A stretch of DNA of 20,000 nucleotides from an uncultured virus (IMG/VR IMGVR_UViG_3300042294_002722) (Duplodnaviria; Heunggongvirae; Uroviricota; Caudoviricetes). Below are positions 3 through 16,611 of the stretch, one piece after another. The notes under the pieces were generated by a model, which saw nothing but the letters and a program-made list of their open reading frames with translations, searched no databases and was not told the DNA's origin. Location of the stretch: IMG/VR virus record IMGVR_UViG_3300042294_002722; one strand, written 5' to 3'. Position 1 is the first letter of the stretch. The number at the start of each line of letters is the position of its first letter. The translations under genes and the position numbers were made by a program.

Positions 3-452
3 TCCTGCACACTAGGTAACACTTCCGAGTACAGATGCTGGTGCAAATTTAAGCGAAGGTGTCTGGCTCCTAATGACCGTGGTTACATTGATTACGGTGG
101 CCGAGGCATTCGTGTCTGCGAGCGATGGCTTGGTTCCACGGGCTTCCAGAACTTCCTGGCTGACATGGGGCGTAAGCCTAGTCCCGCCTATTCGATAGAC
201 AGAATCGACGTAAACGGCGATTACTGTCCCGAAAATTGCAGATGGGCTACCCGTACTCAACAGAATAATAACACCCGCAGAAACATCGTATTGACCCATG
301 CCGGGAGGTCTATGACTATGGCGGAATGGTCGCGCGAAACGGGCATAGACTACAAAATAATACATTCTAGGGTACAGATTATGGGATGGTCAGCAGAAGA
401 TGCCTTGACTCGCCCCATACGCCAAATAAGCAAACGAGGACCGAACAGATGA
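3..452 (+). CDS. HNH (homing-type) endonuclease with C-terminal helical DNA-binding domain; 5'-truncated by window edge
   Basis: The frame of ORF 165..452 is open back to base 3 and reads ...YRCWCKFKRRC...YIDYGGRGIRVCERW...FQNFLADMGRKP..YSIDRIDVNGDYCPENCRWATRTQQNNNTRRN, the typical phage HNH pattern (YGGRGI.VC.RW / SIDRID.NG.Y.P.NCRWAT). The C-terminus TMAEWSRETGIDYKIIHSRV..GWS.EDAL is HTH-like. Confidence 0.9.
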   Translation, partial: SCTLGNTSEYRCWCKFKRRCLAPNDRGYIDYGGRGIRVCERWLGSTGFQNFLADMGRKPSPAYSIDRIDVNGDYCPENCRWATRTQQNNNTRRNIVLTHAGRSMTMAEWSRETGIDYKIIHSRVQIMGWSAEDALTRPIRQISKRGPNR

Positions 453-1453
453 TACAAGAACTGCGGCTAAAGAATTTCCAACGGCACAAAGACCTCCAGG
501 TCACATTTGGCCCTCACATTACGGCTATCGTGGGCCAGAGCGATACTGGCAAGTCAGCAATTATCCGTGCGATTCGATGGCTCGTAGAACATCGCCCGAT
601 CAGTGGTCTGCCCACCCACGGAACCGATGACACGCGAGTCGGGATCAAGACAGACAAAGGATTAGTAATTCGGTTCAAGGACAAAAAGAACTACGGATAC
701 TCGGTCAACGGTCAAAAGTATCTGGCTACGGGAACACAGCAACCAGTTCCGGTTAGCCAGTTATTAGCGATGGAGGACATTAACTTTCAGGGCCAGCATG
801 ATCCCGTGTTTCTGCTTTCTCTGACCCCGGGACAAATGGCTAAGGAGCTAAACCGGATAGTCGATCTTTCAGTCATTGATGAATCGATGGCTGAGATCAA
901 TAGTCGGGTGACGAAAACGAAGGCACAGGTCACAACATACCAAGAAGAAGAGGCTAGACTAGCCAAAGGCGTAGAAGAACTGCTCTGGGTCCAAGAGGCT
1001 GTGGACAAGCTGGCTTTGCTAGACGAACGCGCCACAAAGCTAGAATCGGTTGAGTGCCGCCATGCCGCCCTGGAAATAAAGGTTTTGCGTTTAACTGAAT
1101 CGGATGCAAAGTTACAGAAATACAGGGAAATGGAAGACTGGCTTTCTCTGTTTGTGGAGACAGTCCGACAATACCGCGAACACTGTTCTCGCCGGGATTC
1201 CCTAAAAAAGGTGGTTGACGGCATCCTGAACCGTAAGTTCCCCAGTCAGAAATTTTACGACGCAATCGAATCTCTGCTTGCCAGGGCTGAAACTGTAGCA
1301 CAAATGAAACAAAAGAGAGATCGACTAGCAGTCTTAGTAGCACAGGCAAAAAGCTGCAACTCGTCAATCGCTATCAAAGATACCGAGATATCCCAAACCC
1401 AGTCCCAGATCAAGGAGATTCCAGTATGCCCATCGTGCAACCGTCCCCTGTAG
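449..1453 (+). CDS. Rad50/SbcC-like ATPase, N-terminal half (Walker A, Q-loop, coiled coil, zinc hook)
   Basis: The ATG at 449 overlaps the HNH stop (ATGA) and has GAGGA at 436-440. Reads MIQELRLKNFQRH (SMC-family start), Walker A GQSDTGKS, Q-loop INFQGQHD and a long heptad-rich region, and ends in CPSCNRPL (CxxC hook). No signature motif or Walker B. Confidence 0.88.
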   Translation: MIQELRLKNFQRHKDLQVTFGPHITAIVGQSDTGKSAIIRAIRWLVEHRPISGLPTHGTDDTRVGIKTDKGLVIRFKDKKNYGYSVNGQKYLATGTQQPVPVSQLLAMEDINFQGQHDPVFLLSLTPGQMAKELNRIVDLSVIDESMAEINSRVTKTKAQVTTYQEEEARLAKGVEELLWVQEAVDKLALLDERATKLESVECRHAALEIKVLRLTESDAKLQKYREMEDWLSLFVETVRQYREHCSRRDSLKKVVDGILNRKFPSQKFYDAIESLLARAETVAQMKQKRDRLAVLVAQAKSCNSSIAIKDTEISQTQSQIKEIPVCPSCNRPL

Positions 1454-2343
1454 CAGTTCTTTGTTCTGACCTACACCTTCGTCATACGGTCCCCTCGGGC
1501 CGTGCCGAATCGAACTGGTACGATGTCATGTTTCCGTACCTAAAGAACCTACGAGAGGTGTCCTATCGTTACGGAATCCCGATTATCTGCGCGGGAGACG
1601 TATTCGACCGATGGAATCCCCCGGCTGAACTGGTTTCGTGGGCCATTGACCACCTACCTGAGATGTATGCGATTCCGGGGCAGCATGACTTGAATGGGCA
1701 TGACTACGAAAGGCGAATGGACGGGGCATACGGGGCACTGGTAAAAGCTGGCATTATCCATGACTTGATACCCGAGGCATGGACCGTAATCAGGGGTGGA
1801 GTAGCGGTTTGGGCCAATCCCTGGGGTCGGTATCTATTTCCCGATCACGGGCCATTGATACATAGTGAAGTTTCTTTGCAAGTGATCCACAAGTATGTCT
1901 ACACAGATTCAACTCCGAGCAAATACTACGGAGCGCCAGAAGACGCAGAGTATCGAGCGTGCCTATCAGCAAACAGCAAGTTAGTGGATTACATACTTAT
2001 CGGGGACAATCACATCCGGTGGAACACCCTGGAGGCAGGGAATCCCGGTAGCCTGATCCCCATGAAACAGGACCAGATAAACCATAAGCCTGCCTACGGC
2101 TTGCTATCTTCTTCGGGCCTTGCCGAATGGTATGAGTACGATGTACCCGCTCCTAAGTGGCAGACCCTAATGTACGCAGCGTCCCTGACTGAAAAGGTCG
2201 CGGACGATGTAATCGCGGCTCTCGGCAGCCTAGAAACTGTATCAGAGTCTTTTTCGGATCGTCTTTTCCATGCCGCCGAAAACGCCGCTTGCCTAGAACT
2301 TTCTAAAATTTTGAGGGAAGTGTGGGAGCAGACTCGGAAATAG
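1426..2343 (+). CDS. Mre11/SbcD-like metallophosphoesterase nuclease
   Basis: Phosphoesterase motifs SDLH, AGDVFD, PGQHD, IH, GDNH, followed by NPGS; lies between the two SbcC halves. Confidence 0.9.
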   Translation: MPIVQPSPVAVLCSDLHLRHTVPSGRAESNWYDVMFPYLKNLREVSYRYGIPIICAGDVFDRWNPPAELVSWAIDHLPEMYAIPGQHDLNGHDYERRMDGAYGALVKAGIIHDLIPEAWTVIRGGVAVWANPWGRYLFPDHGPLIHSEVSLQVIHKYVYTDSTPSKYYGAPEDAEYRACLSANSKLVDYILIGDNHIRWNTLEAGNPGSLIPMKQDQINHKPAYGLLSSSGLAEWYEYDVPAPKWQTLMYAASLTEKVADDVIAALGSLETVSESFSDRLFHAAENAACLELSKILREVWEQTRK

Positions 2344-2585
2344 ATCGATACTTATGTAGACACTGCCAAGAGGTCTTGTACATAGCCTCGGGCAGTGGGA
2401 ACGAGCATTTACTTGAATGCCCGTTCGGGTATAGACCAGGAATCAGTCCATGCAAACCAAGGGGAAGACGTAACTGTGGTAGCTGCAAACAAACTCGACA
2501 AACTCGTAAAGGAACTCCAATCTTTGCAGATGGCGAAAGCCCGTCTGGAGGGGGAACAGAAACAGTTGATGAAGTCGTTGAATGA
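2322..2585 (+). CDS. Possible small Cys-rich (Zn-binding) protein
   Basis: GTG start after GAGGG; six Cys including CRHC and CGSC; fills the 2344-2475 gap but overlaps the next gene by about 110 nt, so it is uncertain. Confidence 0.3.
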   Translation: MGADSEIDRYLCRHCQEVLYIASGSGNEHLLECPFGYRPGISPCKPRGRRNCGSCKQTRQTRKGTPIFADGESPSGGGTETVDEVVE

Positions 2586-2733
2586 ACTCGGCTTTGATTC
2601 CGTAGAGGATGCGTCTGAGGAACTGGATCGCTTGGACGAGTTTTTAAGACAAGAAGGGAGCCTGCTCGATGCCGACTACGAACAATTCCAGACCCAGTAC
2701 GCTGACGCGATCCAAGCTGCACAGGCTAAGTAG
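2476..2733 (+). CDS. Small coiled-coil protein, possibly the missing middle segment of the split Rad50 arm
   Basis: In frame with ORF 2395..2733; the likely GTG start at 2476 follows GGGGAAG (2461-2467). Heptad-rich: KLDKLVKELQSLQMAKARLEGEQKQLMKSL...EELDRLDEFL. Confidence 0.7.
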   Translation: MVAANKLDKLVKELQSLQMAKARLEGEQKQLMKSLNELGFDSVEDASEELDRLDEFLRQEGSLLDADYEQFQTQYADAIQAAQAK

Positions 2734-3268
2734 CGAATTATCCCTCAAGCAGAGACAACTTGAAGATACTAGGGCACAGCTTATGTATGCACAGGATCGA
2801 CAAAGATTCCAAGAAACCGCCAAAGAAGTCATTCGGCAGATAGGTGCAGAATGCCAGGAAACCGCACAGGCTCAAATAAACACCGTAGTAACGCGATGTT
2901 TGCAGGCTGTCTTTGGTCCCGGATCGTACCAGTTTCGTTTGGTATTTGAACTCAAACGGGGCCAGACAGAAGCCCGGGCTGTTTTAATCGATGCCCAGGG
3001 CAACGAACTGGACCCCGTACAAAGCGTGGGCGGGGGCATTTTGGACGTAGTGACATTCGGGCTACGCCTCGCGTGTCTTGCGTTGATGCGCCCCCGCCCG
3101 GCGCAGGTACTGATTCTGGATGAACCGTTTAGGTTCCTAAGCGAGCAGTACCGCGAAAACGTGAAGCGACTCATGGTTGAGTTGTCAGAGGAGTTGGGAA
3201 TACAGATAATCCTGGTCACGCACATCTCTGAATTCATGGACGTTGGGCATCTAATTACGGTGGTATAA
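2669..3268 (+). CDS. Rad50/SbcC-like ATPase, C-terminal half (coiled coil, signature, Walker B, H-loop)
   Basis: ATG at 2669 with GGGAG 8 nt upstream; N-terminal coiled coil, signature-like SVGGG, Walker B/D-loop VLILDEPFRFLS and H-loop IILVTH; no Walker A. Confidence 0.9.
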   Translation: MPTTNNSRPSTLTRSKLHRLSSELSLKQRQLEDTRAQLMYAQDRQRFQETAKEVIRQIGAECQETAQAQINTVVTRCLQAVFGPGSYQFRLVFELKRGQTEARAVLIDAQGNELDPVQSVGGGILDVVTFGLRLACLALMRPRPAQVLILDEPFRFLSEQYRENVKRLMVELSEELGIQIILVTHISEFMDVGHLITVV

Positions 3269-3269
3269 A

Positions 3270-3476
3270 ATGCGAGATACTGGAGCAACTACTAAATCAG
3301 AGTATGTTCTGAGGTACGGAGTGCATGAAATTGACGAAGATGTGGCAAATGCTATGTTTGTAGCCACGAATGCTGATCCAGGGTCCAATGAGAAGATAGA
3401 GATCATGGCAAAGCGATTTGAATTGGGCCAGCCCATTTTTCATCCGGACGACAAGACTTACGGAAACCAAGCATGA
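3270..3476 (+). CDS. Small hypothetical protein with T-x-A-x-PGS-x-EKI...R...G-x-P-x-F/W-HP-x-D motif
   Basis: Tightly packed ORF (1 nt after the previous stop; ATGA overlap with the next gene); contains ATNADPGSNEKIEIMAKRFELGQPIFHPDD. Confidence 0.75.
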   Translation: MRDTGATTKSEYVLRYGVHEIDEDVANAMFVATNADPGSNEKIEIMAKRFELGQPIFHPDDKTYGNQA

Positions 3477-4231
3477 AATTCCTTTGCCTGACTCCTCTGT
3501 ATAACCATCATCAACGGCTTACTCAGAACGTGTACCAAGCACTCGTTGACCAGACCCACGGTGACTGGGTTTGGGTGCTAGGAGATGACAGGCCGTGGGA
3601 ATCGCAATTACCGGGACTTCTTGAACCAGACCCCCGAGTTGTAATAAAGCGATTCCACACCAGATGCGAAAGCATGGGCGAGAAGTACACGGCTATGGTC
3701 GCACACGCAGAAGAACAAGGCATCCAGTGGGATGCGATTGCCATCATGGACGGCGATGACATGTTCATGCCAAAGCACCTTGAGAAACACGCGGAGGCAC
3801 TTTCCTGGGGCCTCTACAGCCGTCCTAGCGTAGTGCTTACAGCGATGACCGGGATTGTGCAAGTGGAGTCCTCGACAGGCCGGTTCTGGAGTTCTGTAGC
3901 GTTTACTCGTAAAGGGTTAGAAAGAGTGGGCGGTTTTGGGGACTCTAAGTTTGTCGGATTTGACCAGGAGATGCTGAAAAAATTCAAAATGCTCTGCGGG
4001 GAAACCGACCACGAAACACCGACTTACGTTTATCGGTGGGCTGATACGGCGAGCGACCATGCTTCCGGACACAGTTCTGGATTTGCCTGCACTGAGTGGT
4101 GGGGCAAAGTTCCTGTGATGCCAGGAGAAGGGCTTCTGTATCCTAGGTACGACGATGCTACGGACATTTTTATCATTCCTGGGGCTGAGGCAGTCTATGC
4201 AAAACGAAAAGAATCTGGGCTTTCGTATTAG
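3473..4231 (+). CDS. Glycosyltransferase, GT-A fold (GT2-like)
   Basis: N-terminal LCLTPLYN strand, LVDQTHGDWVWVLGDD, DxD-type IAIMDGDDMF, GLERVGGF and GFDQEM, matching the GT2 motif order. Confidence 0.85.
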   Translation: MKFLCLTPLYNHHQRLTQNVYQALVDQTHGDWVWVLGDDRPWESQLPGLLEPDPRVVIKRFHTRCESMGEKYTAMVAHAEEQGIQWDAIAIMDGDDMFMPKHLEKHAEALSWGLYSRPSVVLTAMTGIVQVESSTGRFWSSVAFTRKGLERVGGFGDSKFVGFDQEMLKKFKMLCGETDHETPTYVYRWADTASDHASGHSSGFACTEWWGKVPVMPGEGLLYPRYDDATDIFIIPGAEAVYAKRKESGLSY

Positions 4232-4910
4232 TAAATCGGAATACATAGATGTAAATGCTATCTATGAACTGCATCACGGTAATCTAGGGGATCACTGGAC
4301 TTCATACAGCCTTATGGCCCTTCTGGGGTTACGCTTTGACCTTCCAAAGGGGTTCACCTACAAGCTGGGTACTTTGAACGGGGGGATGGATTACACAGGC
4401 AGATTGCAAGAGATCGATGCCCTTTTCTCAGAATTTGAGTACCGGCCCCAGCTAGTTCGGGAACAGGGAACAGTCAAAGTCGATCCCTGGTTGAACTGGT
4501 CTACCCCGCCGCTGATGGTTGATAAGAGATTCCGGTGGTCCCTGCAAAAATGCGAGCCGTATTTCTGCTACCAGTTTGACGGTCTATCGGCTGCTGAGAG
4601 CAAGAACCCGCCCCCTAGTTTGATTTTTGCAGTCAAGCAATCCCTAAAATCCAAAGGGTATCGTTCCGTTAGGCTAGGGTCGCATGTTACTTTGCAGGAG
4701 TCTGCCGAGTTGCTTTCCCGGTGCAGTCTTTTTGTAGGGTGCGATAGCGGGTTCAGCCACATCGCCCACAGTGTTGGATGCCCGGTTTACATGTACGAGG
4801 GCAGTCTGCCGGTGTACACGGCACACCGGCTAAAGCAGAACGACATCTTTAAGAGTCTGCCGGAGTTTGAAATGAAACTCCAGCATTGGCATTCCTTTTT
4901 GACGATTTAG
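4197..4910 (+). CDS. Glycosyltransferase, GT-B fold (GT9/heptosyltransferase-like)
   Basis: Likely start at ATG 4197 (GAGG at 4187-4190). N-terminal GNLGD and C-terminal TLQESAELLSRCSLFVGCDSGFSHIAHSVGCPV match the GT9 DSG..H.A motif. Confidence 0.82.
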   Translation: MQNEKNLGFRISKSEYIDVNAIYELHHGNLGDHWTSYSLMALLGLRFDLPKGFTYKLGTLNGGMDYTGRLQEIDALFSEFEYRPQLVREQGTVKVDPWLNWSTPPLMVDKRFRWSLQKCEPYFCYQFDGLSAAESKNPPPSLIFAVKQSLKSKGYRSVRLGSHVTLQESAELLSRCSLFVGCDSGFSHIAHSVGCPVYMYEGSLPVYTAHRLKQNDIFKSLPEFEMKLQHWHSFLTI

Positions 4911-4912
4911 GT

Positions 4913-6943
4913 CTACTTGCAAAGACCTTTTTCGATCTTCTTTTCTGCGGCACGGATTGCTCGTAATACCGCCAGCTTGACCACGGGTCGCACATAGAGG
5001 TGGCCCATGTTTCGTTTGTCGGCTTCTTCCTTGAGCCAGTCTAGGATCGTCTCTAACTCTTCGCGGCACTTAGCCGGTCCCCAATCATCCATCACGGCTG
5101 CGCGTGCGTTACAGGAGCAACCAGGGGCCGCCTCGATGCCTATAAGCTTTAGGGTGGCCTTTAGTTCTTGCCCGCAACCGCAAAGTTTTCCTTCGGGATC
5201 GAGCATCCCGGGAAACAGTTTTACGGGGTCTTTGGGCTTGTCACCCGGCAGCCGTGACAGCACCGTCATCCCGTACTGGTTTTTCGCGTGTTCAGCGATG
5301 AACCATTCAGGGTTCTGGTTGATAAATTGTGATATCCCCCAGAACATGCCCTTGCCGCCGCCCTCCCCGTCTACCCCGAAGATCGCGGTATCGTGAATCA
5401 TTATGCGTGAAGACACTTTGGGTGCATACCGAGTCAGTTCTTCCAGAACCCGTTCGCCGCTGTGGACTGTATCCAGGAACAAGAAATCTGTTTCTGGTAT
5501 TTCATCGACCAGCTTAGAATGGTCAAACGGAGCGATACTAAACTCCAGCGGTCGCCCGGAGTGCGTTTTTACCATGTCCTGGAGGATACCGATCAAGCTA
5601 TCCTGTTCTTGTTGGAAACTGACCAAGACGGCAGGCTTGTCGCATCGTTTGTCACACTTGGACTTGTCGCAATTACCTCGGCAAGGGATTTTGCGTCCCA
5701 GTGCCCCTAACAACAGGGCAGTGGACTCTCGCCGTCCGGTGATGTCTACTGCATGGTGCATGTCAATGAGCCACTTCATAAACAGCCCGGCATGCTCGTT
5801 CAGATCGCGAGGGGCCAGGGCTACGAAGTTCACTACATCATTGAGGGTTTCGTAATTCGTGGGCAACGGGAAACCGAGATTGGATGTCGCTGCCGCCGCT
5901 GCCGGTGCGGGACCGTTTGCCCTTGGCCTAGGCTGAAAAGGCTGGAACGCTACGGGATCGCGGGCAATGATGTCAAAGGTCGCTTGTGGGAACTTGACTT
6001 CGTCTACGAAGTGCTTACGCACCTCTTCGGTATCCCAATCCACATCTTTGTACCCGATCAGATAGTTTCTGATCTTGTTTTCCATTGTCAGGGGGTACGG
6101 AACTCCTCCCGGACGACCAAAACGATGCACCCATTTGATAAACGGCAGGCAGTAAGTTGTCCTGCCGTGTTTGCGATACAGGGCGTGATGCAGGATTTCC
6201 TCGCCGCCGAATCCCCGGAAATCGCGGTTAAAGGGAATCCAGTGTTCCTTGCTGGTTACAAATAACCCGAACCCTTGACCGGGAACCTCGAACGGCGGTT
6301 CGTCGTTGGTCATACCCATGACTTTGTAGCCGCGATCCACCAACTGTTGTTCATGACCGGGCCAAGGAATCTCGGTAGGAGTCCATTCGCCCTTGCTTTC
6401 TACATGCAATTTGCGTAAATGCACACGGTTGTCAAAGTTTTTGCAGACGATAGCCGTCCCATCTGGATGCCGCCAAGCCGTGGCCCAAGTCCCGTTCATC
6501 TGGTCTTGAAAGCCGATCTCAAAGTGAGTGGAGACAAAGGAAAGCCCGTCATAAAGCAGCGGGCCGGTAAACAGATTCTTCTGCATCTCGGGAGTAGCTT
6601 CCCGTAGATGCTTCTTGAGCAAGTGAATGCCGTTTGCCTGAACGAAAACGTGAGGGTCCGTGACCATCACAAAATCGCCCTGGGCCTCCTCAATGATCTT
6701 GTTACGGGGTTGCGATGTGCCGCCGATCTCTGTGTACGGGATATATCGGATATTTTCAATGTGAGAAATGCTTTGGATAAAGTCCCGAGTGGCCTGACCT
6801 TCTGGCGAGTCAGGATTGTTGTCCACGATGATGAACTCGCAGTCCCGGGTATCCTGGTACATGCGATGTGCTTGGACGGTGAAATAAACACCGTTGAAGT
6901 CATTGTAAGTGGCGCAACCAATGGTTAGAAAAGGCTTGCTCAT
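4913..6943 (-). CDS. Fusion: GT2-like glycosyltransferase, class I SAM methyltransferase-like domain (Methyltransf_24-like) and C-terminal Cys-containing helical domain
   Basis: GT2 motifs LTIGCATYND, EFIIVDNN, SQPRN, GDFVMVTDPHV and FRGFGGEE; a Pro/Ala linker; then DLNEH...TDFLFLDTVHS...IMIHDT...GMTVLSR (MTase-like); the C-terminus is CGCGQELK...GCSCNARAAVMDDWG..KC. Confidence 0.85.
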   Translation of the reverse strand: MSKPFLTIGCATYNDFNGVYFTVQAHRMYQDTRDCEFIIVDNNPDSPEGQATRDFIQSISHIENIRYIPYTEIGGTSQPRNKIIEEAQGDFVMVTDPHVFVQANGIHLLKKHLREATPEMQKNLFTGPLLYDGLSFVSTHFEIGFQDQMNGTWATAWRHPDGTAIVCKNFDNRVHLRKLHVESKGEWTPTEIPWPGHEQQLVDRGYKVMGMTNDEPPFEVPGQGFGLFVTSKEHWIPFNRDFRGFGGEEILHHALYRKHGRTTYCLPFIKWVHRFGRPGGVPYPLTMENKIRNYLIGYKDVDWDTEEVRKHFVDEVKFPQATFDIIARDPVAFQPFQPRPRANGPAPAAAAATSNLGFPLPTNYETLNDVVNFVALAPRDLNEHAGLFMKWLIDMHHAVDITGRRESTALLLGALGRKIPCRGNCDKSKCDKRCDKPAVLVSFQQEQDSLIGILQDMVKTHSGRPLEFSIAPFDHSKLVDEIPETDFLFLDTVHSGERVLEELTRYAPKVSSRIMIHDTAIFGVDGEGGGKGMFWGISQFINQNPEWFIAEHAKNQYGMTVLSRLPGDKPKDPVKLFPGMLDPEGKLCGCGQELKATLKLIGIEAAPGCSCNARAAVMDDWGPAKCREELETILDWLKEEADKRNMGHLYVRPVVKLAVLRAIRAAEKKIEKGLCK

Positions 6944-6974
6944 AAAAATCCCTGTAAAACGTGTCCCGCTAAGA

Positions 6975-7012
6975 AACTCCTTGCATTATAGACAAGGAGT
7001 TCTAGGTTGCAA
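6975..7012 (-). promoter_or_regulatory. Sigma70-like promoter for the GT-MTase gene with the -10 box inside a 9-bp inverted repeat (operator or hairpin)
   Basis: Minus strand TTGCAA (7012-7007), 16-nt spacer, TATAAT (6990-6985); inverted repeat AACTCCTTG (6975-6983) / CAAGGAGTT (6993-7001); located in the 83-nt intergenic gap. Confidence 0.6.
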
Positions 7013-7026
7013 ATCTACCGAATAAC

Positions 7027-10000
7027 TCATTCTGGGGCCATTGTTGGGCCTGCCGTGGTCGCTGGTGCTTCCGTAGTTGTTGTGGTTGTCGGGGCTGCCG
7101 TGGTTGTCGGGGCTGCCGTGGTTGTTGGGGCTGCCGTGGTTGTTGGGGCTGCCGTGGTTGTTGGGGCTGCCGTGGTTGTTGGGGCTGCCGTGGTTGTTGG
7201 GGCTGCCGTGGTTGTTGGGGAGCCTAATTCTTCTGGGGGGACATTAGTAGTCACAGGAGGAATTTGAGTAGTCGTGCCCCCACAGAAAGGTGGATTACCA
7301 GATAAGCAAGTAACGCCGGTGTTCCAACTGCACGAGACTTGATTGTTTGAGTAGCTTATACAGGTTTCCAGCGCCACGCCATTTGTGCAACTATAAGACA
7401 CAGGAAACACATTTGCATTAACACAGCAACAAGCACCTAGTAGTATAGTGGTTGTTGTGGTGCTAGTGGTAGTGAATCCGCAAGCGGCTAATGGGTTTGG
7501 TCCGCAGGTAGCGTTGGCTGTCCAAGACCCTCCGATTTCGGTACAGAATGACTGAGAGTAGCCCTCTCCGCATCCTCCTCCCCAAGGACTAGGCGGTACG
7601 CAGCAACGGCCTAAAGGAGTTCCTGTTGTGGTTGTTGTTGGACACGGGTTAGGAGAACATACACTGCCCGCACCCTGGAATGAACCGCCAGAATTGACGC
7701 ATGAGTCTCGGGAACCGACAGTACAGGTTCCTCCCGGCCAGCAGCAGGCTCCAGGACCAATGGTCGTGGTGCTTGTGGTAGTCCCCGTGCCAGTGGTTGT
7801 ACTGGTCGAAGTGCGAGTAGGTACAATCTCTCCGCACTGAAAATCGATCATATCACAATCAGACAGGCTTTGTGCTAATGGTGCGCCCGGACAAGGACAA
7901 GTGGTAGGGCAGTTATCAATAAATTTATTCCAACCACCATAACCGTTGCCCTTATAAGTGCATTTTCGTTGACAGCTTGTGGTGTTACAACATGCGCACT
8001 CTGCATAACCTGATCCGCAACTTGTTTGAATGATCTGGCATACATTAGTCGGAGGGTCAGACGGTACGGAGCATCGACAATTTGCAAAACTAGAAACTAG
8101 ACTATTATCGCATCCCGGGGGGCCAAGTTTACAGCAGTCGCCGTGTCCTTCACCTAAATACACATAGCATGGTATCTCTTGCCATATATACTCAGTACCC
8201 GGGAAGTTAAATACTGAATAAAAAATGCAAGTACCGGAACAGCTACTACAAGGAGGACGCGGGCTAGTAGTAGGAGGCAAACCACAAGGAACCGAATAAG
8301 TATCCCCGCAACTTGCATTAGGTGGAAATGTCCCGGCGCAGAGATTGCCACCGACCATGACGCAATCGGTGGGGCTGGGCGTGCCACCAGGCCCCCAGGC
8401 ATAAGGAGGCAACGTACAGTGGCAACTATTAAGAGCATTCTCACACCTCTCCGTCATCTGCCACTGGTTAAGTGACGATGAAATCGGCACGCTTACATAT
8501 GTCCATGTACATTGTCCGCAAGGCGCGGATGTAGTAGTTGTGCCTGTTCCAGTGGTAGATGTAGAACTGGTACAAATGCACCATTTTCGCCCGTCAAAAC
8601 AAGTCGGTATCTCTGGTTCCGGAGTGGTCGCTGGACATTCTAACTCCGTACCTGCGCCTCCTGGAACGCACTCAGTTCTCACACACATCCCTGCTACATC
8701 AGGACAACGTACAGGCGGCCTGCAACCGCAAGGCGCGATTGTCGTAGTGGTTGTCGTAAAAGTAGTAGTAGGGGCCGGGGTGGTTTCAGTTAAATCTTCT
8801 TCGTACATCTCGCGCCATGCTGGCGCAAAATTGCACAGGTTACAGTCGTAGCCCGGAACACAAGGGGTTTCCCACTTCCATAACCTAGAGCCAGATTCGG
8901 CATAGTCCAGTCTGCCATGCCTGCGCCCCCAGCTAGCAAATCGTTCTCCCTCTACCCACAATACGCCATATCCCCAGTCTGGGTCATTCGGTGCGTCATC
9001 TATCAACCAGTTTCGCATACTGATCCACCAAGAGGTGTCCATTGGCAGCATACGAGGAGGGGGCAACTTTGGCCGAGTTCCTGGAGGGCATGACTGGCAT
9101 ATTGACCAGTTAGGTGCGTACCACGCTAAGGGATTGCGGTCAGGCGGGTCAGAAACAGTGTTCAAACTGTCCTGAAATCCTGGTAGTTGCAACCCTTGAA
9201 TCTCCCATCCATCCTCCTCAGCATATAAAAACGCATTACTCAGTGGTCTTGGTCCCGGATTCAGATCGAATCGTAGAAAGTCCGCAGACTCTAGGGCGTT
9301 TTGCCAGTTTGTTTGAAGATTGTCCCAGTTGAATGCCCTGTAGACCGCTTTACCTACTGGGTAATCACCGGGCAAAGGCAAATCAGAGGAACATGGGTCG
9401 TACACACAGCTAGTCTGATGGTAAACCGCTGTCGCATTTTCGCTAGGCAAAACAGGAGGTTTTGCACCGATGGGGTACAACGGTCTGTAGCCCGGGTCAC
9501 ATTCTTTGCAAACCTGCCACGGTCCTAGGCCGCCTTGCAGCCTAGCAGCGCGAAATGTATTTGCAGGAATACTTGCTGTAGGGGCAAACTTATTAACTTG
9601 GAAACAGGGATTCTGGCGATTGCTAGGCGACTCTGTCGTCGTTGTCGTACTGGTCGTAGTAACCATGAAAATACAACGACTCTCAATGTACGCATTCAAA
9701 GTGAAGCAGGGATCGCCCTGCCCGTAGCAAGTGCAAGGAGATGAGCATCCATCTGCTCCTGGGTTCTCTAACTGATAAGTCAACCCGGTAGAAGGAGCAG
9801 GGGGCCATGCACCTGAGGTCGTAGTTACGGCTACGCATTTAAGTTTGCAGGTAGGTTTTGCGGATAGACAAGGGGCAGCAGTTGTGCTGGTTGCCGTAGT
9901 AGTGGTAGTTGTTCCAGTTGTGGTAGGGCCGATTGTCGTAGGTGGGGGTGCGGCGGTCGTGGTTGTTGTACTTGTAGTAGTTCTGTTCTCGCACCCGCCT

Positions 10001-10548
10001 ACCGGCCCTTCCCAAGCAAGGCCGGAGTTCGCAGTCCATAAACAGTATCCCTGGCAAGGAAGATTCACAGGACTTGGGGTAGTGCTGGTAGTTGTGCCTG
10101 TAGTGGTTGTGGATTTTAATCCGAGCCAAATCCTTGATTGCTCAATATCGCCTTTGTCTACTACCCAAGTCCCGTTCTTATGTTTTGTGATTTTTACCAG
10201 ATGGTTGACTGTCCACCCGGTTTCGTTGTAGACTATGGCTCTGGTAGGGATTCCCACGCCATCTAACAACTGAATGATACGCTTGCTTTCGCGGTCATAC
10301 TTAAACAGACAGCACTTTGCAGCCCCGAAGGAGTCGCTACTAGAGTCGTACCCATCTCTAAGATACCCCGCCGGAATACCTGTCTCACAAGGCGGTAAAG
10401 CGAAGTAGGTATCTGCTGCACTAAACAAATGCCCTGCTTTCGGCGCAATCATAGACGCAGGCGGCGCGCTTTCAGCGGCCCCTAAAACGCGCCCTAAGCG
10501 CTTGCGGTCGGCATCAGATAGAAAATAACCTTTGTGGTTGCCTAGCAT
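7027..10548 (-). CDS. Large Cys-rich, Thr-rich mucin-like protein; probable tail fibre/adhesin
   Basis: 1173 aa, in the position after tape measure and tail-tip genes; about 80 Cys (manual count) in modules separated by about 10 poly-Thr/Pro linkers; three G[A/R]CC modules; C-terminal (PTTTAA)7. Confidence 0.75.
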   Translation of the reverse strand: MLGNHKGYFLSDADRKRLGRVLGAAESAPPASMIAPKAGHLFSAADTYFALPPCETGIPAGYLRDGYDSSSDSFGAAKCCLFKYDRESKRIIQLLDGVGIPTRAIVYNETGWTVNHLVKITKHKNGTWVVDKGDIEQSRIWLGLKSTTTTGTTTSTTPSPVNLPCQGYCLWTANSGLAWEGPVGGCENRTTTSTTTTTAAPPPTTIGPTTTGTTTTTTATSTTAAPCLSAKPTCKLKCVAVTTTSGAWPPAPSTGLTYQLENPGADGCSSPCTCYGQGDPCFTLNAYIESRCIFMVTTTSTTTTTESPSNRQNPCFQVNKFAPTASIPANTFRAARLQGGLGPWQVCKECDPGYRPLYPIGAKPPVLPSENATAVYHQTSCVYDPCSSDLPLPGDYPVGKAVYRAFNWDNLQTNWQNALESADFLRFDLNPGPRPLSNAFLYAEEDGWEIQGLQLPGFQDSLNTVSDPPDRNPLAWYAPNWSICQSCPPGTRPKLPPPRMLPMDTSWWISMRNWLIDDAPNDPDWGYGVLWVEGERFASWGRRHGRLDYAESGSRLWKWETPCVPGYDCNLCNFAPAWREMYEEDLTETTPAPTTTFTTTTTTIAPCGCRPPVRCPDVAGMCVRTECVPGGAGTELECPATTPEPEIPTCFDGRKWCICTSSTSTTGTGTTTTSAPCGQCTWTYVSVPISSSLNQWQMTERCENALNSCHCTLPPYAWGPGGTPSPTDCVMVGGNLCAGTFPPNASCGDTYSVPCGLPPTTSPRPPCSSCSGTCIFYSVFNFPGTEYIWQEIPCYVYLGEGHGDCCKLGPPGCDNSLVSSFANCRCSVPSDPPTNVCQIIQTSCGSGYAECACCNTTSCQRKCTYKGNGYGGWNKFIDNCPTTCPCPGAPLAQSLSDCDMIDFQCGEIVPTRTSTSTTTGTGTTTSTTTIGPGACCWPGGTCTVGSRDSCVNSGGSFQGAGSVCSPNPCPTTTTTGTPLGRCCVPPSPWGGGCGEGYSQSFCTEIGGSWTANATCGPNPLAACGFTTTSTTTTTILLGACCCVNANVFPVSYSCTNGVALETCISYSNNQVSCSWNTGVTCLSGNPPFCGGTTTQIPPVTTNVPPEELGSPTTTAAPTTTAAPTTTAAPTTTAAPTTTAAPTTTAAPTTTAAPTTTTTTEAPATTAGPTMAPE
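7082..7220. repeat. 18-bp tandem repeat (7 full copies plus partial flanks) encoding PTTTAA
   Basis: Unit GGGGCTGCCGTGGTTGT[C/T] at 7091, 7109, 7127, 7145, 7163, 7181 and 7199; six copies are identical and one differs by a single base. Confidence 0.97.
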
Positions 10549-10985
10549 GGGAAAGCGGTCATGTGCAGAATAGCGGTTGCTTTGGTGGCTTTAACAGTAA
10601 TAACCCCAGGAAACTCCCCGAACAACATCCTACCGGGCCTGAGGATTGCATGCAACTTTCCATCGAGGTAGACTTCGATAACATTGCCCTTTTGCTGTTC
10701 GGCCATCAGGGGATCGCTACCTAGGATTTCCAGTTCTTTGTGCCCCAGGAAAATTTCAAAACTTCCTTCGGGCAGTAGCAGTTTCTGTTCCTTGGCGGGA
10801 TTTACTCGGATATCAGACTGGATCGCGGAGTCAACCGATGGGCGTAGTCGGTCGTAGGCCCATCTAGAATTGACCATATTCCCCGTACCCCACTCCAAAT
10901 AAGTCCCCTGGAAAACTGCTGTAAATCGGTCTTCTTCTTTAGGTTCACCTACCGTCTTGACTATTTCTTCGTTCGACTTTAGCAT
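10542..10985 (-). CDS. Hypothetical tail-region protein (beta-rich)
   Basis: 147-aa ORF overlapping both neighbours in the structural operon; no recognisable motif. Confidence 0.7.
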   Translation of the reverse strand: MLKSNEEIVKTVGEPKEEDRFTAVFQGTYLEWGTGNMVNSRWAYDRLRPSVDSAIQSDIRVNPAKEQKLLLPEGSFEIFLGHKELEILGSDPLMAEQQKGNVIEVYLDGKLHAILRPGRMLFGEFPGVITVKATKATAILHMTAFPC

Positions 10986-11920
10986 TAGATTAGCACCGTT
11001 GGGATTCCTAAGAGTAAGAGATTTGCTTGCTTTGCAATCTGAACTGTTTGAATAAACGTGTTACCAGGAATCGGAACTCCTAGTATACCTACGTCATCAG
11101 GGGTAGCAGGTCTGCCGATATAATCCAAAAACACAGGAGGCATGTTCTCGCCGTTATCGTCTTTGGGGATTTCGTAAGACCCCGGCAGAAACGGAATAGC
11201 ACCGTTTTTTAGCCTAGCCAGACCGTATGACGGTATCTTCTTATCAAAGGTATCCAGATTGCACTCAAACGTGTATTGTATCTTGTAGTAGTAAAAACAT
11301 GTACCGTACAGAACTCTCTCAAACCGGCAGTCTGTAAATCGGACACACCTTGCCGGAAACCCCCACAAAGGCGCATCGTTGACTCTGTTAATCAGTAAGT
11401 TGAAGGTAGACGCTGGTAAGACAGCACTGTTGAAACTGATACTGATGGACGGATAGCTTACCTTTTCTTCGACCTCCGGTCCAAGAATAGGCTCCAGATT
11501 CGAGTGCCGAAGTGCCCTTCCAAACCGGTCAGTCTTCATTTCCCGGGAGACATGCACAAAATCCCCAGACAGTGTGTACGGTTCTAATAGCGGGTTTTCG
11601 ATCTGTGTCGAGTTACACCGCTGCATGGGCCTAGTGGTGTACTCATTCGTGATTTGCCAAGACTGCACTACGTCCCCGTCGCTGTATCCCGGGTGAGGTG
11701 CGATAGCTAACCGTGGGGTACAGAATGCCCAAGGATCGTAGTCGTTGTCTATGCTGTATACAGAACCCGTAGGCAGCACTGTATTGACAGCTTGTAGCAC
11801 TGTCTCTGGGCCGTCTAGCGGACTGTCCGTATTGAATATCCAAGTGCATTCGTAAGTTCGATGCCCCTCTTCATCACGGGACATTGATACGTTTTTTAGA
11901 CCTCTCAAAACGGCTGTCAT
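10985..11920 (-). CDS. Putative tail tip/distal tail protein
   Basis: 311 aa, ATGA-coupled to the tape measure stop and beta-strand-rich; function inferred from synteny only. Confidence 0.65.
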   Translation of the reverse strand: MTAVLRGLKNVSMSRDEEGHRTYECTWIFNTDSPLDGPETVLQAVNTVLPTGSVYSIDNDYDPWAFCTPRLAIAPHPGYSDGDVVQSWQITNEYTTRPMQRCNSTQIENPLLEPYTLSGDFVHVSREMKTDRFGRALRHSNLEPILGPEVEEKVSYPSISISFNSAVLPASTFNLLINRVNDAPLWGFPARCVRFTDCRFERVLYGTCFYYYKIQYTFECNLDTFDKKIPSYGLARLKNGAIPFLPGSYEIPKDDNGENMPPVFLDYIGRPATPDDVGILGVPIPGNTFIQTVQIAKQANLLLLGIPTVLI

Positions 11921-16149: not shown

Positions 16150-16611
16150 TCACGGACCAGCGGTCGTGGTGGTCGTAGCCGTGGTTCCGGTAGCAAAGAC
16201 CGGAGCGGTTTCGACCGGCGTTGCTGCCGTGGACATATTGCTTGGAACCAGTTCCAACGTGCCTTCTGGCCGTTCGCCTTCCTTGAAGGAATCGAAGGTG
16301 AAGGAGTTGATGATGGCATAGAATACCAGGGTAGACCCGTCCGGGAACGTAATGGTAACGTGCCGGTTGGTTCCGAGGAACTGGTGCATCTGTGCAATGA
16401 CCTTGGGGTCAAATGCGACTTTGATCGATACGGGTTCGAGCGTAATCAGGGCCTTACCGAGCATCGTTCGGTAACGGCTGTTACGCATCGTGGTTTGGTC
16501 GATCCCGCCACCGGAATTCATCGACGGTGGGGTTACTTCGATTTCCTCGAATTGGCCGCTGATCCCGTTGATCGCGATCAGGATTTTGAAACCGTCCTTC
16601 AAGTTAGGCAT
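16150..16611 (-). CDS. Major tail tube protein with Thr-rich C-terminal extension
   Basis: 153 aa upstream of the chaperone; IEVTPPSMNSGGGIDQTTM...ITFPDGSTLVFYAIINSF resembles siphovirus tube proteins; ends in ATGTTATTTTTAGP. Confidence 0.85.
   Translation of the reverse strand: MPNLKDGFKILIAINGISGQFEEIEVTPPSMNSGGGIDQTTMRNSRYRTMLGKALITLEPVSIKVAFDPKVIAQMHQFLGTNRHVTITFPDGSTLVFYAIINSFTFDSFKEGERPEGTLELVPSNMSTAATPVETAPVFATGTTATTTTTAGP

What the first reader, a model, noticed from the sequence alone, without database searches (positions are those of the whole stretch)
7027..10548. Eukaryote-style mucin architecture in a phage tail-fibre position: Cys-rich beads on poly-Thr strings
Seen: about 80 Cys in compact modules alternating with about 10 Thr-rich linkers (e.g. 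TTTSTTTTTAAPPPTTIGPTTTGTTTTTTATSTTAAP, TRTSTSTTTGTGTTTSTTT), with no obvious signal peptide. This recalls peritrophin/mucin or protist surface proteins rather than the usual beta-helix or collagen-like fibres. Inference: a novel receptor-binding or adhesion appendage. How so many Cys are handled in a cytoplasmically assembled virion (Zn binding versus disulfides formed after lysis) is an open question.
Basis: partly seen in the sequence, partly recalled or inferred. Interest (0 to 1): 0.8.

Follow-up and report, generated by a model that had tools for sequence, protein, structure and literature searches.

The report
Mucin-like cysteine-beaded phage tail fibre
The last tail gene of an uncultured phage encodes a fibre built like a mucin, with small cysteine-rich beads on threonine strings, and it is always followed by sugar-adding enzymes, so the phage probably sugar-coats its own tail.

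Summary
ORF 7027-10548 (-) encodes 1173 aa with 83 Cys, 180 Thr and 10 Thr-rich linkers, and has no signal peptide or membrane segment. It is the last gene of a siphovirus tail operon, after the tape measure protein, a 311-aa gene and a 147-aa gene. That order is kept in 30 related viral loci.

The protein has no Pfam, PHROG, NCBIfam, PDB or cultured-phage match. It belongs to a large metagenome-only family of 1396 representative hits. Of 53 invariant columns, 39 are Cys. One C-terminal bead is a canonical copy of a 37-aa six-Cys repeat found in tandem in secreted bacterial surface proteins.

A soluble glycosyltransferase-methyltransferase gene follows it in 22 of 22 loci with enough DNA. Relatives of that enzyme sit directly behind a Thr-linker protein in 66 of 68 viral loci, against 5 of 660 other ORFs. 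The tail-tube protein also ends in a conserved poly-Thr tag.

Best reading: a receptor-binding fibre whose Thr linkers are O-glycosylated by phage enzymes. The host is probably Planctomycetota. No sugar, disulfide or virion location was measured.

The parts
7027..10548 (-). Whole gene P0001 (1173 aa): Cys-bead / poly-Thr tail fibre
10114..10548 (-). N-terminal domain, residues 1-145 (3 Cys). Together with the next small module it is the part shared with many proteins that have other C-termini, so it is the presumed tail anchor.
   Evidence: Hits matching only profile positions 1 to about 205; alignment A9
9871..10113 (-). Linker 1, 3-Cys mini-module (residues 161-189), linker 2
9661..9870 (-). 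8-Cys bead, residues 227-296 (CxCYGxGDPC signature)
   Evidence: Invariant Cys; pattern used
8785..9612 (-). Middle domain, residues 313-588: 10 Cys including three CxxC pairs around a Trp-rich, Cys-free, poorly conserved insert
8572..8730 (-). 9-Cys bead, residues 607-659 (8 Cys invariant)
7813..8520 (-). 30-Cys domain, residues 677-912
7642..7752 (-). Canonical 37-aa six-Cys 'GACC' repeat, residues 933-969
   Evidence: 41.1 bits, E 1.2e-14 against an HMM of 150 bacterial repeats
7282..7611 (-). Second, divergent GACC-like bead (980-1025; 9.1 bits) and third, degenerate one (1038-1089), with a Thr linker between them
7030..7281 (-). C-terminal Thr-rich tail, including TTTAAP x7 encoded by an 18-bp tandem repeat (7082-7220). 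The close relative has 4 copies.
4913..6943 (-). GT676: soluble GT-A glycosyltransferase (about residues 1-315) fused to a CmcI-like O-methyltransferase and a Cys-rich C-terminus; presumed fibre-glycosylating enzyme
3473..4910 (+). Two further glycosyltransferase-like genes: GT2-like 3473-4231 (below the Pfam cut-off) and GT9-like 4155-4910
10542..11920 (-). The 147-aa and 311-aa genes between the tape measure gene and P0001 (overlapping starts and stops); distal-tail proteins by position only
16150..16611 (-). Putative major tail (tube) protein, named by position. It ends in a poly-Thr tag (about 16153-16194).

Best explanation
P0001 is the distal tail fibre (receptor-binding or adhesion protein) of an uncultured lytic siphovirus whose hosts are probably Planctomycetota. 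A conserved N-terminal domain of about 145-190 residues fixes it to the tail tip. From there extends a chain of small, Cys-stabilised beads joined by poly-Thr linkers. It ends in three repeats of a kind otherwise found in bacterial surface proteins, followed by a long Thr-rich tail. While the fibre is made in the cytoplasm, phage-encoded soluble enzymes O-glycosylate the Thr runs. These enzymes are GT676 (a glycosyltransferase fused to a sugar O-methyltransferase) and one or two further glycosyltransferases. They would also modify the poly-Thr tag at the end of the tail-tube protein. The sugars would keep the linkers extended and protease-resistant and would coat the tail. The mosaic C-terminal beads make the contact with the host surface. 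Shown here: the architecture, the gene position, conservation of the Cys residues and linkers, the tight gene linkage, and the kinship of one bead with bacterial repeats. Inferred: virion location, glycosylation, receptor binding, host, and that most Cys form disulfides, probably only after lysis.
For: Position: the genes upstream on the same strand are tail terminator, tube, G/T chaperones, tape measure protein (PF20155, E 1.3e-23), a 311-aa gene and a 147-aa gene, with overlapping stops and starts. The same order holds in 30 viral loci.

Receptor-binding-protein-like evolution: neighbouring genes are 55-70% identical where P0001 is 33-35% identical. Many proteins share only the N-terminal part or only the C-terminal half. 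Against a 94%-identical relative, divergence is concentrated in residues 713-736 and 935-1173.

Cys residues are structural: 39 of 53 invariant columns are Cys. Modules between linkers hold an even number of Cys in 430 of 664 cases. CC and CxC patterns (7 each) outnumber CxxC (5).

Bead 933-969 matches the 37-aa repeat of large bacterial proteins that carry PKD, beta-helix, dockerin, LamG or T9SS sorting domains, or a signal peptide.

Glycosylation: a GT676 homologue lies downstream in 22 of 22 loci that have at least 2 kb of downstream DNA. In 21 of the 23 loci that hold one it starts 64-103 nt after the stop. Among 68 viral loci of GT676 relatives with at least 3 kb upstream, 66 have a Thr-linker ORF directly upstream on the same strand, against 5 of 660 other ORFs. 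This holds in 34 of 36 enzyme clusters at 70% identity and for 8 BLAST-separable groups of Thr-linker proteins. It also holds for Cys-poor Thr-rich proteins in other tail-fibre neighbourhoods. The enzymes have no membrane segment. The tube protein ends in a poly-Thr tag in 20 of 21 related loci. In a complete relative, Thr tracts lying within a gene occur only in the fibre and the tube (two further tracts fall near the N-terminal end of stop-to-stop frames, see the full report). The only PDB chains aligned over the whole GT domain are polypeptide GalNAc-transferases T7 and T4 (E 0.038 and 0.071). In those alignments the FGGEE motif falls on their WGGEN motif.

Host: two integrated prophages on long contigs, one in a Pirellulales MAG and one in a Gemmataceae MAG, carry the same tape measure - Cys-bead/Thr-linker protein - GT-MT module.
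Against: Nothing was measured: no virion proteomics, glycan, thiol or metal data exist. No structure could be predicted, so neither a fibre fold, nor trimerisation, nor disulfide geometry was tested.

The 68 loci are related phages, not independent samples. 56 of the 66 upstream Thr-linker proteins fall into one BLAST superfamily, so inherited synteny explains part of the linkage.

The best PDB match of GT676 is TarP, a prophage enzyme that glycosylates host wall teichoic acid (E 2e-9, N-terminal 120 residues only). The GalNAc-transferase matches are not significant on their own. Pfam Glyco_transf_7C hits only 4 of 65 family members. Most bacterial GT-only homologues have no Thr-linker neighbour: 15 of 78 genome loci hold any Thr-linker ORF.

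No tail-hub (gp27-like) gene was recognised, so the tail-tip architecture is unclear.

About 40 disulfides are hard to reconcile with cytoplasmic assembly. No thioredoxin, DsbA or glutaredoxin family protein was found in 5 related records, 3 of them at least 90% complete. The Erv1/ALR search also found none, but nothing rang in its controls either, so it shows nothing.

The N-terminal domain was found in 0 of 401 sampled Planctomycetota genomes and 0 of 401 of the control phylum. The host call therefore rests on distant relatives.
Confidence: 0.55

Rival explanations
1. P0001 is a tail fibre, but its Thr runs are plain flexible spacers. On this reading the GT-MT cassette acts on another target, such as host envelope glycans or teichoic-acid-like polymers (superinfection exclusion or receptor masking, as with prophage TarP or serotype-converting phages) or another phage product.
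For: The strongest PDB match of GT676 is TarP, with TarS next; both are wall-teichoic-acid glycosyltransferases. GT-only homologues are common in bacterial genomes without Thr-linker neighbours. A promoter-like site lies in the 84-nt gap, so GT676 may be transcribed on its own. Linkage could be inherited synteny.
Against: The TarP and TarS matches cover only the generic nucleotide-binding half. The enzymes have no membrane segment. The phage looks lytic, whereas surface conversion is typical of temperate phages. Adjacency follows Thr-linker content even where the neighbour is not detectably related to P0001 and is Cys-poor. The linkers are 59% Thr against 11% Ser. The tube protein carries a conserved poly-Thr tag.
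Confidence: 0.2
2. The Cys residues, or a large share of them, bind metal (all-Cys zinc sites) rather than forming disulfides. The beads would then fold in the reducing cytoplasm and no oxidative step would be needed.
For: The protein has no export signal and is made in the cytoplasm. The middle domain has three conserved CxxC pairs, two of them in a repeated W..C..C.PG.RP motif. Even Cys counts fit Cys4 sites as well as disulfides. No phage thiol oxidase was found.
Against: The GACC bead is shared with secreted bacterial proteins, where six Cys in 37 residues are expected to be three disulfides. CC and CxC spacings dominate over CxxC, and there are only 8 His. Counts of 6 and 10 Cys per bead are common and are not multiples of four.
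Confidence: 0.25
3. P0001 is not a virion part. It would be a protein released at lysis, such as an adhesin, a decoy or a matrix-binding factor, that merely sits at the end of the tail operon.
For: No known structural domain and no virion data exist. No fibre fold could be tested.
Against: Its start overlaps the stop of the preceding tail gene. The position is fixed in 30 loci. It shows the conserved N-terminus and swapped C-termini typical of tail-attached proteins.
Confidence: 0.05

Closest known systems
Mycobacteriophage virion glycosylation (Freeman et al. 2023, Cell Host Microbe). The paper is not held. It is known here from recall and from one passage of PMC12619734.
   Same: Phage-encoded glycosyltransferases sit beside structural genes. 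Glycans are reported at the C-termini of capsid and tail-tube subunits. Here the tube protein ends in a conserved poly-Thr tag.
   Different: GT676 has no tblastn match in 50,697 cultured-phage records. Here the main presumed substrate is a multi-linker, Cys-rich fibre. The host phylum differs. No glycan has been shown.
Chlorovirus PBCV-1 A064R (passages of PMC9614988 read)
   Same: It is a soluble, cytoplasmic, virus-encoded multi-domain enzyme that combines a GT-A glycosyltransferase with a sugar O-methyltransferase to build glycans on a virion protein.
   Different: A064R has two GT domains and acts on N-linked glycans of a capsid protein. No chlorovirus chain appears among the PDB hits of GT676, so no homology was shown.
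Animal mucin-type O-glycosylation: mucins plus polypeptide GalNAc-transferases (GT27). The motif names are recalled.
   Same: Thr/Pro-rich linkers lie between Cys-rich domains. The GT domain has an invariant DxH, an FGGEE motif aligned onto WGGEN, and a downstream His. GalNAc-T7 and T4 are the only PDB chains aligned across the whole domain.
   Different: The matches are weak (E 0.038-0.18). There is no ricin lectin domain, no secretory pathway and no signal peptide. The beads are unrelated to mucin domains.
Tandem 37-aa six-Cys 'GACC' repeat of large bacterial surface proteins (not in Pfam or NCBIfam)
   Same: Residues 933-969 are a full-length copy (41.1 bits). Named carriers include a Planctomycetota MAG protein and an FCB-group protein with a T9SS sorting domain.
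   Different: The bacterial proteins carry 8-20 head-to-tail copies and export signals. The phage has one canonical and two decayed copies separated by Thr linkers, and no export signal.
Serine-rich-repeat adhesins of Gram-positive bacteria with their dedicated cytoplasmic glycosyltransferases (recalled)
   Same: A long hydroxy-amino-acid-rich adhesin is glycosylated in the cytoplasm by enzymes encoded beside it.
   Different: Those adhesins are exported by an accessory Sec system and are Ser-rich. No homology was tested.

Membership tests
Siphovirus tail fibre / receptor-binding protein | Encoded in the tail module downstream of the tape measure and distal-tail genes | tested here: met
   same order in 30 loci
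Siphovirus tail fibre / receptor-binding protein | Conserved N-terminal attachment part with exchangeable, fast-evolving C-terminal part | tested here: met
   Hits sharing only the N-terminal or only the C-terminal part; divergence concentrated at the C-terminus
Siphovirus tail fibre / receptor-binding protein | Recognisable fibre, spike or receptor-binding fold or family | tested here: not met
   No Pfam, PHROG, NCBIfam, PDB or cultured-phage match. The fold itself could not be modelled.
Siphovirus tail fibre / receptor-binding protein | Present in virions and binds the host | not testable with these tools
   Needs proteomics, EM and adsorption assays
Mucin-type O-glycoprotein system | Thr/Ser/Pro-rich tracts between folded Cys-rich domains | tested here: met
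   10 tracts. Composition of 264 linkers from 31 members: 59% Thr, 13% Pro, 11% Ser.
Mucin-type O-glycoprotein system | Initiating polypeptide glycosyltransferase of the GT27 type | tested here: inconclusive
   GalNAc-T7 and T4 are the only whole-domain PDB hits, at E 0.038 and 0.071. With the C-half profile the only hit is GalNAc-T7, at E 0.18, with motifs aligned. Glyco_transf_7C hits 4 of 65 members.
Mucin-type O-glycoprotein system | Glycans attached to the Thr residues | not testable with these tools
   Needs mass spectrometry
Mucin-type O-glycoprotein system | Passage through a secretory pathway (signal peptide) | tested here: not met
   No hydrophobic N-terminus or membrane segment
   No such Pfam match on five separate segments, even at E up to 10
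Bacterial 37-aa six-Cys 'GACC' surface repeat | Full-length match to a profile built from 150 bacterial copies | tested here: met
   Residues 933-969 score 41.1 bits (E 1.2e-14), 980-1019 score 9.1 bits, and the third copy is not significant. Multi-repeat bacterial hits reach E 4.8e-57.
Mycobacteriophage-type virion glycosylation | Phage glycosyltransferase genes beside structural genes, and a hydroxy-amino-acid tag at the tube C-terminus | tested here: met
   tube tag in 20 of 21 loci
Mycobacteriophage-type virion glycosylation | Enzymes homologous to those of the mycobacteriophages | tested here: not met
   No tblastn match of GT676 in the cultured-phage collection at E 1e-5
Chlorovirus A064R-like multi-transferase | Soluble single chain joining a GT-A domain and a sugar methyltransferase | tested here: met
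   PF00535 plus PF04989/PF13578; O-methyltransferase 4PCA at E 0.007; no membrane segment
Chlorovirus A064R-like multi-transferase | Sequence kinship with A064R | tested here: not met
   No chlorovirus chain among the PDB hits

The most novel reading that the evidence does not exclude
A widespread, undescribed phage system makes a true viral mucin. A GT27-like polypeptide glycosyltransferase fused to a sugar methyltransferase starts and caps O-glycans on the poly-Thr linkers of the tail fibre and on a poly-Thr tag of every tail-tube subunit, all inside the bacterial cytoplasm. The roughly 40 disulfides of the fibre beads can form only after lysis, so the virion finishes folding, and perhaps becomes infectious, outside the cell. 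The system would mark a large group of phages of Planctomycetota.
Probability: 0.3. Interest if true: 0.85.

Novelty: new variant of a known kind. Interest (0 to 1): 0.68.

Why it matters
If true, virion glycosylation would extend from a few actinobacteriophages and giant algal viruses to hundreds of environmental phage lineages. GT676 relatives were found in 537 viral stretches. The fibre family has 1396 representative hits.

It would add a new building plan for receptor-binding fibres: disulfide-type beads on glycosylated strings, in place of beta-helices, collagen or coiled coils. It would point to a bacterial-world relative of the enzymes that start mucin glycosylation.

It would also make a sharp question testable: how does a protein with 83 Cys fold when it is assembled in the cytoplasm? 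Finally, it offers gene markers for phages of Planctomycetota, for which my library searches listed no paper on an isolated phage (listings only).

Tried and rejected
Complex prediction (trimer of the N-terminal domain) was not available. No fold, trimer, disulfide-geometry or fold-library comparison was therefore made.

The protein atlas gave nothing usable for residues 930-1100 (scores up to 0.79, unnamed viral clusters) or for residues 1-145.

Searches that found nothing:
- P0001: Pfam, whole and in five segments; PHROGs; NCBIfam; PDB profile; cultured phages; reference genomes.
- The 311-aa and 147-aa genes: no PDB match. The 311-aa gene and the tube protein have no cultured-phage match.
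- Disulfide machinery: 0 of 5 related records hold a thioredoxin, DsbA or glutaredoxin family protein. Erv1/ALR was also 0 of 5, but its controls were silent too.
- Host test with the N-terminal profile: 0 of 401 Planctomycetota and 0 of 401 genomes of the control phylum, so it is uninformative. The GT profile hit 5 of 401 Planctomycetota genomes; no control phylum was run.
- The full-length profile missed the divergent prophage fibres. It hit 1 of 5 genomes, on a short contig.

Considered and rejected:
- A planctomycete YTV cell-wall protein (passages of PMC8567305): no Pfam match.
- DNA glycosylation as the role of the cassette: not excluded, but a GT-A plus CmcI-type sugar methyltransferase and the Thr-linker linkage argue against it.

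Literature: searches listed no paper on Cys/Thr-rich or mucin-like glycosylated phage fibres. Only listings were seen, and subscription journals are mostly not covered. The CASP16 paper that recurred in two listings is irrelevant.


Full report
**The object.** The window is the last 19,984 bases of a 42.7-kb linear viral record that CheckV estimates to be 53% complete. ORF 7027-10548 on the minus strand encodes 1173 residues (P0001). A script count gives 83 Cys (7.1%), 180 Thr (15.3%) and 125 Pro. It also finds ten tracts of at least 8 residues from T/S/A/G/P with at least 4 Thr. The other 18 proteins of the window hold 52 Cys in 5062 residues, and the tape measure and tube proteins hold none. 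The protein has no hydrophobic N-terminus or membrane segment; the maximum 19-residue hydropathy is 1.45.

**Context.** Upstream on the same strand lie an HK97 gp10-like gene, a tail terminator, a 153-aa gene in the tube position, the G and T chaperones, and a 1156-aa tape measure protein (PF20155, E 1.3e-23). A 311-aa gene and a 147-aa gene follow, and then P0001. Each gene's start overlaps the previous gene's stop. Downstream, after an 84-nt gap, lies a 676-aa gene (GT676). It has a family-2 glycosyltransferase domain and a CmcI/rhamnosyl O-methyltransferase-like domain. Converging on it from the plus strand are a GT2-like gene, a GT9-like gene and split SbcCD-like genes. The rest of the record encodes a replication module: family A polymerase, clamp loader, primase-helicase, RecA-like protein and a 5'-3' exonuclease. 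This looks like a lytic siphovirus. Nothing in the tail end matches cultured phages.

**The family.**
- A word-indexed search found 35 relatives, all from metagenomes and none with a Pfam domain.
- In the alignment of 31 of them, 53 columns are invariant and 39 of those are Cys. The Thr runs recur at the same places.
- A full HMMER search with that profile found 1396 representatives at E <= 0.001, and 55 at E <= 1e-30.
- These fall into four kinds: full-length members; proteins sharing only profile positions 1 to about 205; proteins sharing only the C-terminal half; and very large proteins with 8-20 matches to profile positions about 790-885.
- The 51 partial sharers I examined are all of the same make: 4.5-10.3% Cys, 10-24% Thr and 1-11 Thr linkers. 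None has a Pfam domain apart from one sub-threshold 'Mucin' hit.
- This is the pattern of a receptor-binding protein, with a conserved attachment end and shuffled outer parts. In related phages P0001 is 33-35% identical where its neighbours are 55-70% identical.
- Against the 94%-identical relative, all 82 aligned Cys are kept. Differences are concentrated in residues 713-736 and 935-1173 (pS 0.34-0.42 and pN 0.12-0.19 in the latter, against <= 0.11 and <= 0.012 elsewhere). The raised pS suggests recombination rather than selection alone. The terminal TTTAAP unit is present 7 times against 4.

**The beads.**
- The large multi-repeat hits are bacterial surface proteins. They carry PKD, beta-helix, LamG, SdrD-B, FG-GAP, dockerin or T9SS sorting domains. 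One has a plain signal peptide and a GC-type dockerin.
- Named cluster members come from a Planctomycetota MAG and an FCB-group MAG.
- Their repeat is a 37-residue unit with six Cys. Pfam and NCBIfam do not model it and it has no PDB relative.
- A profile of 150 bacterial copies scores P0001 residues 933-969 at 41.1 bits (E 1.2e-14) and residues 980-1019 at 9.1 bits. The third bead is not significant.
- The other beads were seen only in phage-type proteins among the 150 hits listed.
- Between linkers, Cys counts are even in 430 of 664 modules from 91 family proteins. The commonest counts are 6, 3, 8 and 10, and the threes come from the N-terminal domain and the mini-module that follows it. These sequences are related, so the p-value overstates the case.
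- CC and CxC spacings (7 each) exceed CxxC (5), and there are only 8 His.
- I read this as mainly disulfide-type beads. The three conserved CxxC pairs of the middle domain are the best candidates for a metal site.
- No thioredoxin, DsbA or glutaredoxin family protein was found in five related records, three of them at least 90% complete. The Erv1/ALR search also found none, but its controls were silent too, so it shows nothing.
- How the Cys residues are handled stays open. Oxidation after lysis is the simplest guess.

**The enzyme link.**
- Of the 30 viral loci that encode a P0001 relative, 22 have at least 2 kb downstream. All 22 hold a GT676 homologue. So does one further locus with 1.9 kb; the other seven end within 1 kb.
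- In 21 of those 23 loci the enzyme gene starts 64-103 nt after the fibre's stop. In the other two a further Thr-rich ORF lies between.
- Starting from the enzyme instead, 537 viral stretches encode a relative and the best 80 were kept.
- Among the 68 of these with at least 3 kb upstream, 66 have an ORF of at least 200 aa with at least 3 Thr linkers ending within 1.5 kb upstream on the same strand. Only 5 of 660 other ORFs in these loci are of that kind.
- With the stricter demand of at least 4.5% Cys, the count is 60 of 68.
- The two misses are L074, where a 757-aa protein with 7.4% Cys, 16.5% Thr and 2 linkers sits one gene further away, and L101, which has none.
- The link holds in 34 of 36 enzyme clusters at 70% identity. 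The upstream proteins fall into 8 BLAST-separable groups, although 56 of the 66 belong to one. Many show no BLASTP similarity to P0001.
- Short GT-only relatives in other phages sit next to Cys-poor Thr-rich proteins, among tail-fibre genes with Mtd_N, collagen plus Peptidase_S74, and LamG domains. The enzyme therefore follows the Thr runs, not the Cys beads.
- The 153-aa tube-position protein ends in a poly-Thr tag that is conserved in 20 of 21 related loci.
- In a 100%-complete relative, the Thr tracts that lie within a gene are in the fibre and the tube. Two further tracts fall near the N-terminal end of stop-to-stop frames. One of them lies before the start of the 311-aa homologue; the other was not checked.
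- A citing paper states that glycans were observed at the C-termini of capsid and tail-tube subunits of Mycobacterium phages (PMC12619734 passage).
- GT676, GT2b and GT9 have no membrane segment.
- Linkers are 59% Thr against 11% Ser, within tracts defined as T/S/A/G/P only.

**What kind of enzyme.**
- All 65 aligned family members hit Glycos_transf_2. CmcI-type or Methyltransf_24 domains are hit by 34 and 33 of them.
- The GT unit spans about residues 1-315. Its invariant residues include D41-N42, D96-x-H98, FEIPxQG, F245-G-G-E-E249, H253 and W271-x-H273. These also hold in bacterial GT-only homologues.
- By sequence profile, the best PDB hits (TarP at E 2e-9, then TarS and TagF) cover only the first ~120 positions.
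- The only chains aligned across the whole domain are polypeptide GalNAc-transferases T7 (E 0.038) and T4 (E 0.071).
- With the C-terminal half of the domain alone, GalNAc-T7 is the only hit at E <= 10 (E 0.18). In that alignment PaqGlGlFa lies on PamaGGLFA, FGGEE on WGGEN, and the W-x-H on a His.
- From recall, DxH, WGGEN and that His are the hallmarks of GT27. These scores are not significant by themselves, so I rate membership inconclusive.
- The enzyme works like chlorovirus A064R, a soluble GT-A + GT + methyltransferase that builds capsid glycans in the cytoplasm (passages of PMC9614988). No kinship with it was seen.

**Host.**
- Relatives of the full-length GT-MT in reference genomes are mostly in Planctomycetota. 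Of the 12 loci among the 78 kept whose match runs past residue 500, 7 are from that phylum.
- Two lie on long contigs beside fibre-like genes. In a Pirellulales MAG (478-kb contig) the order is tail tube gene, three ORFs, a 736-aa protein with 8.7% Cys and 6 linkers, GT-MT, a GT9-like gene and a phage integrase.
- In a Gemmataceae MAG (124-kb contig) the order is tape measure gene, a 310-aa ORF, an 821-aa Cys-bead/Thr-linker protein and GT-MT.
- A 99%-identical 3.3-kb contig is binned with a Bacteroidia MAG. That is probably mis-binning.
- Direct tests with the N-terminal profile found nothing in 401 Planctomycetota or 401 control-phylum genomes.
- I give about 0.6 to Planctomycetota as the host phylum of this particular phage.

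**Earlier notes of this scan** (AI notes, leads only) report the same theme in other genomes. I found the tube tag and the gene linkage before reading them. Their hint of a GT27-like enzyme led.

**Verdict.** P0001 is a real, strongly conserved, undescribed kind of phage tail fibre. Its mucin-like build is most likely matched by real glycosylation, but this rests on gene linkage and weak enzyme similarity.

Noticed in passing
window 16150-16611 (-), tag at about 16153-16194: The 153-aa protein in the tail-tube position ends in a poly-Thr tag (ATGTTATTTTTAGP). The tag is conserved in 20 of 21 related loci, which makes it a second likely glycosylation target.
   Followed up: partly
window 386-3268 (+): An SbcC-like ATPase appears split around an SbcD-like phosphoesterase gene: N-terminal AAA_23 part at 386-1453, Metallophos at 1426-2343, and C-terminal SMC/AAA_21 part at 2669-3268. 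The arrangement is conserved in related loci.
   Followed up: no
window 6944-7026 (-): The 84-nt gap between the fibre and GT676 holds a promoter-like TTTGCA-17-TATAAT whose -10 element lies in the loop of an imperfect 11-bp hairpin. GT676 may therefore have its own regulated start.
   Followed up: no
window 4909-4928 (+): A terminator-like hairpin followed by a T run lies exactly where the plus-strand GT genes and minus-strand GT676 converge.
   Followed up: no
window 4913-6943 (-), GT676 residues 421-434 and 588-675: GT676 carries two conserved Cys clusters: C421/C425/C430/C434, inserted in the methyltransferase part, and C588/C609/C611/C626/C675 in a C-terminal domain of unknown role. Some relatives hit DUF6171 there.
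   Followed up: no
window 5984-6943 (-), GT676 residues about 160-215: Phage GT-MT enzymes next to Cys-bead fibres mostly carry an insert of about 55 residues in the GT domain. Bacterial and GT-only homologues lack it.
   Followed up: no
L110:6865-16262: In an unrelated viral contig the GT-only homologue sits beside a radical-SAM/SPASM enzyme, a 506-aa protein with 35.6% Thr, and a 1092-aa GT34-like plus methyltransferase protein.
   Followed up: no
L032:11152-11754 and L032:16415-16969: The phage encodes a dNMP kinase and a 5'-deoxynucleotidase. These enzymes often accompany modified DNA bases. Their relation to the GT genes is untested.
   Followed up: no
L114 (3.3-kb contig): A contig 99% identical to the fibre-GT junction is binned in a Bacteroidia MAG. 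Other relatives sit in 'archaeon' MAGs. These are likely phage contigs mis-binned into MAGs.
   Followed up: partly
window 18208-19437 (-): A 409-aa protein ahead of the head-tail connector genes has a sub-threshold carboxypeptidase-regulatory (Ig-like) domain match. It may be a decoration protein. The capsid gene itself seems to lie beyond the contig end.
   Followed up: no
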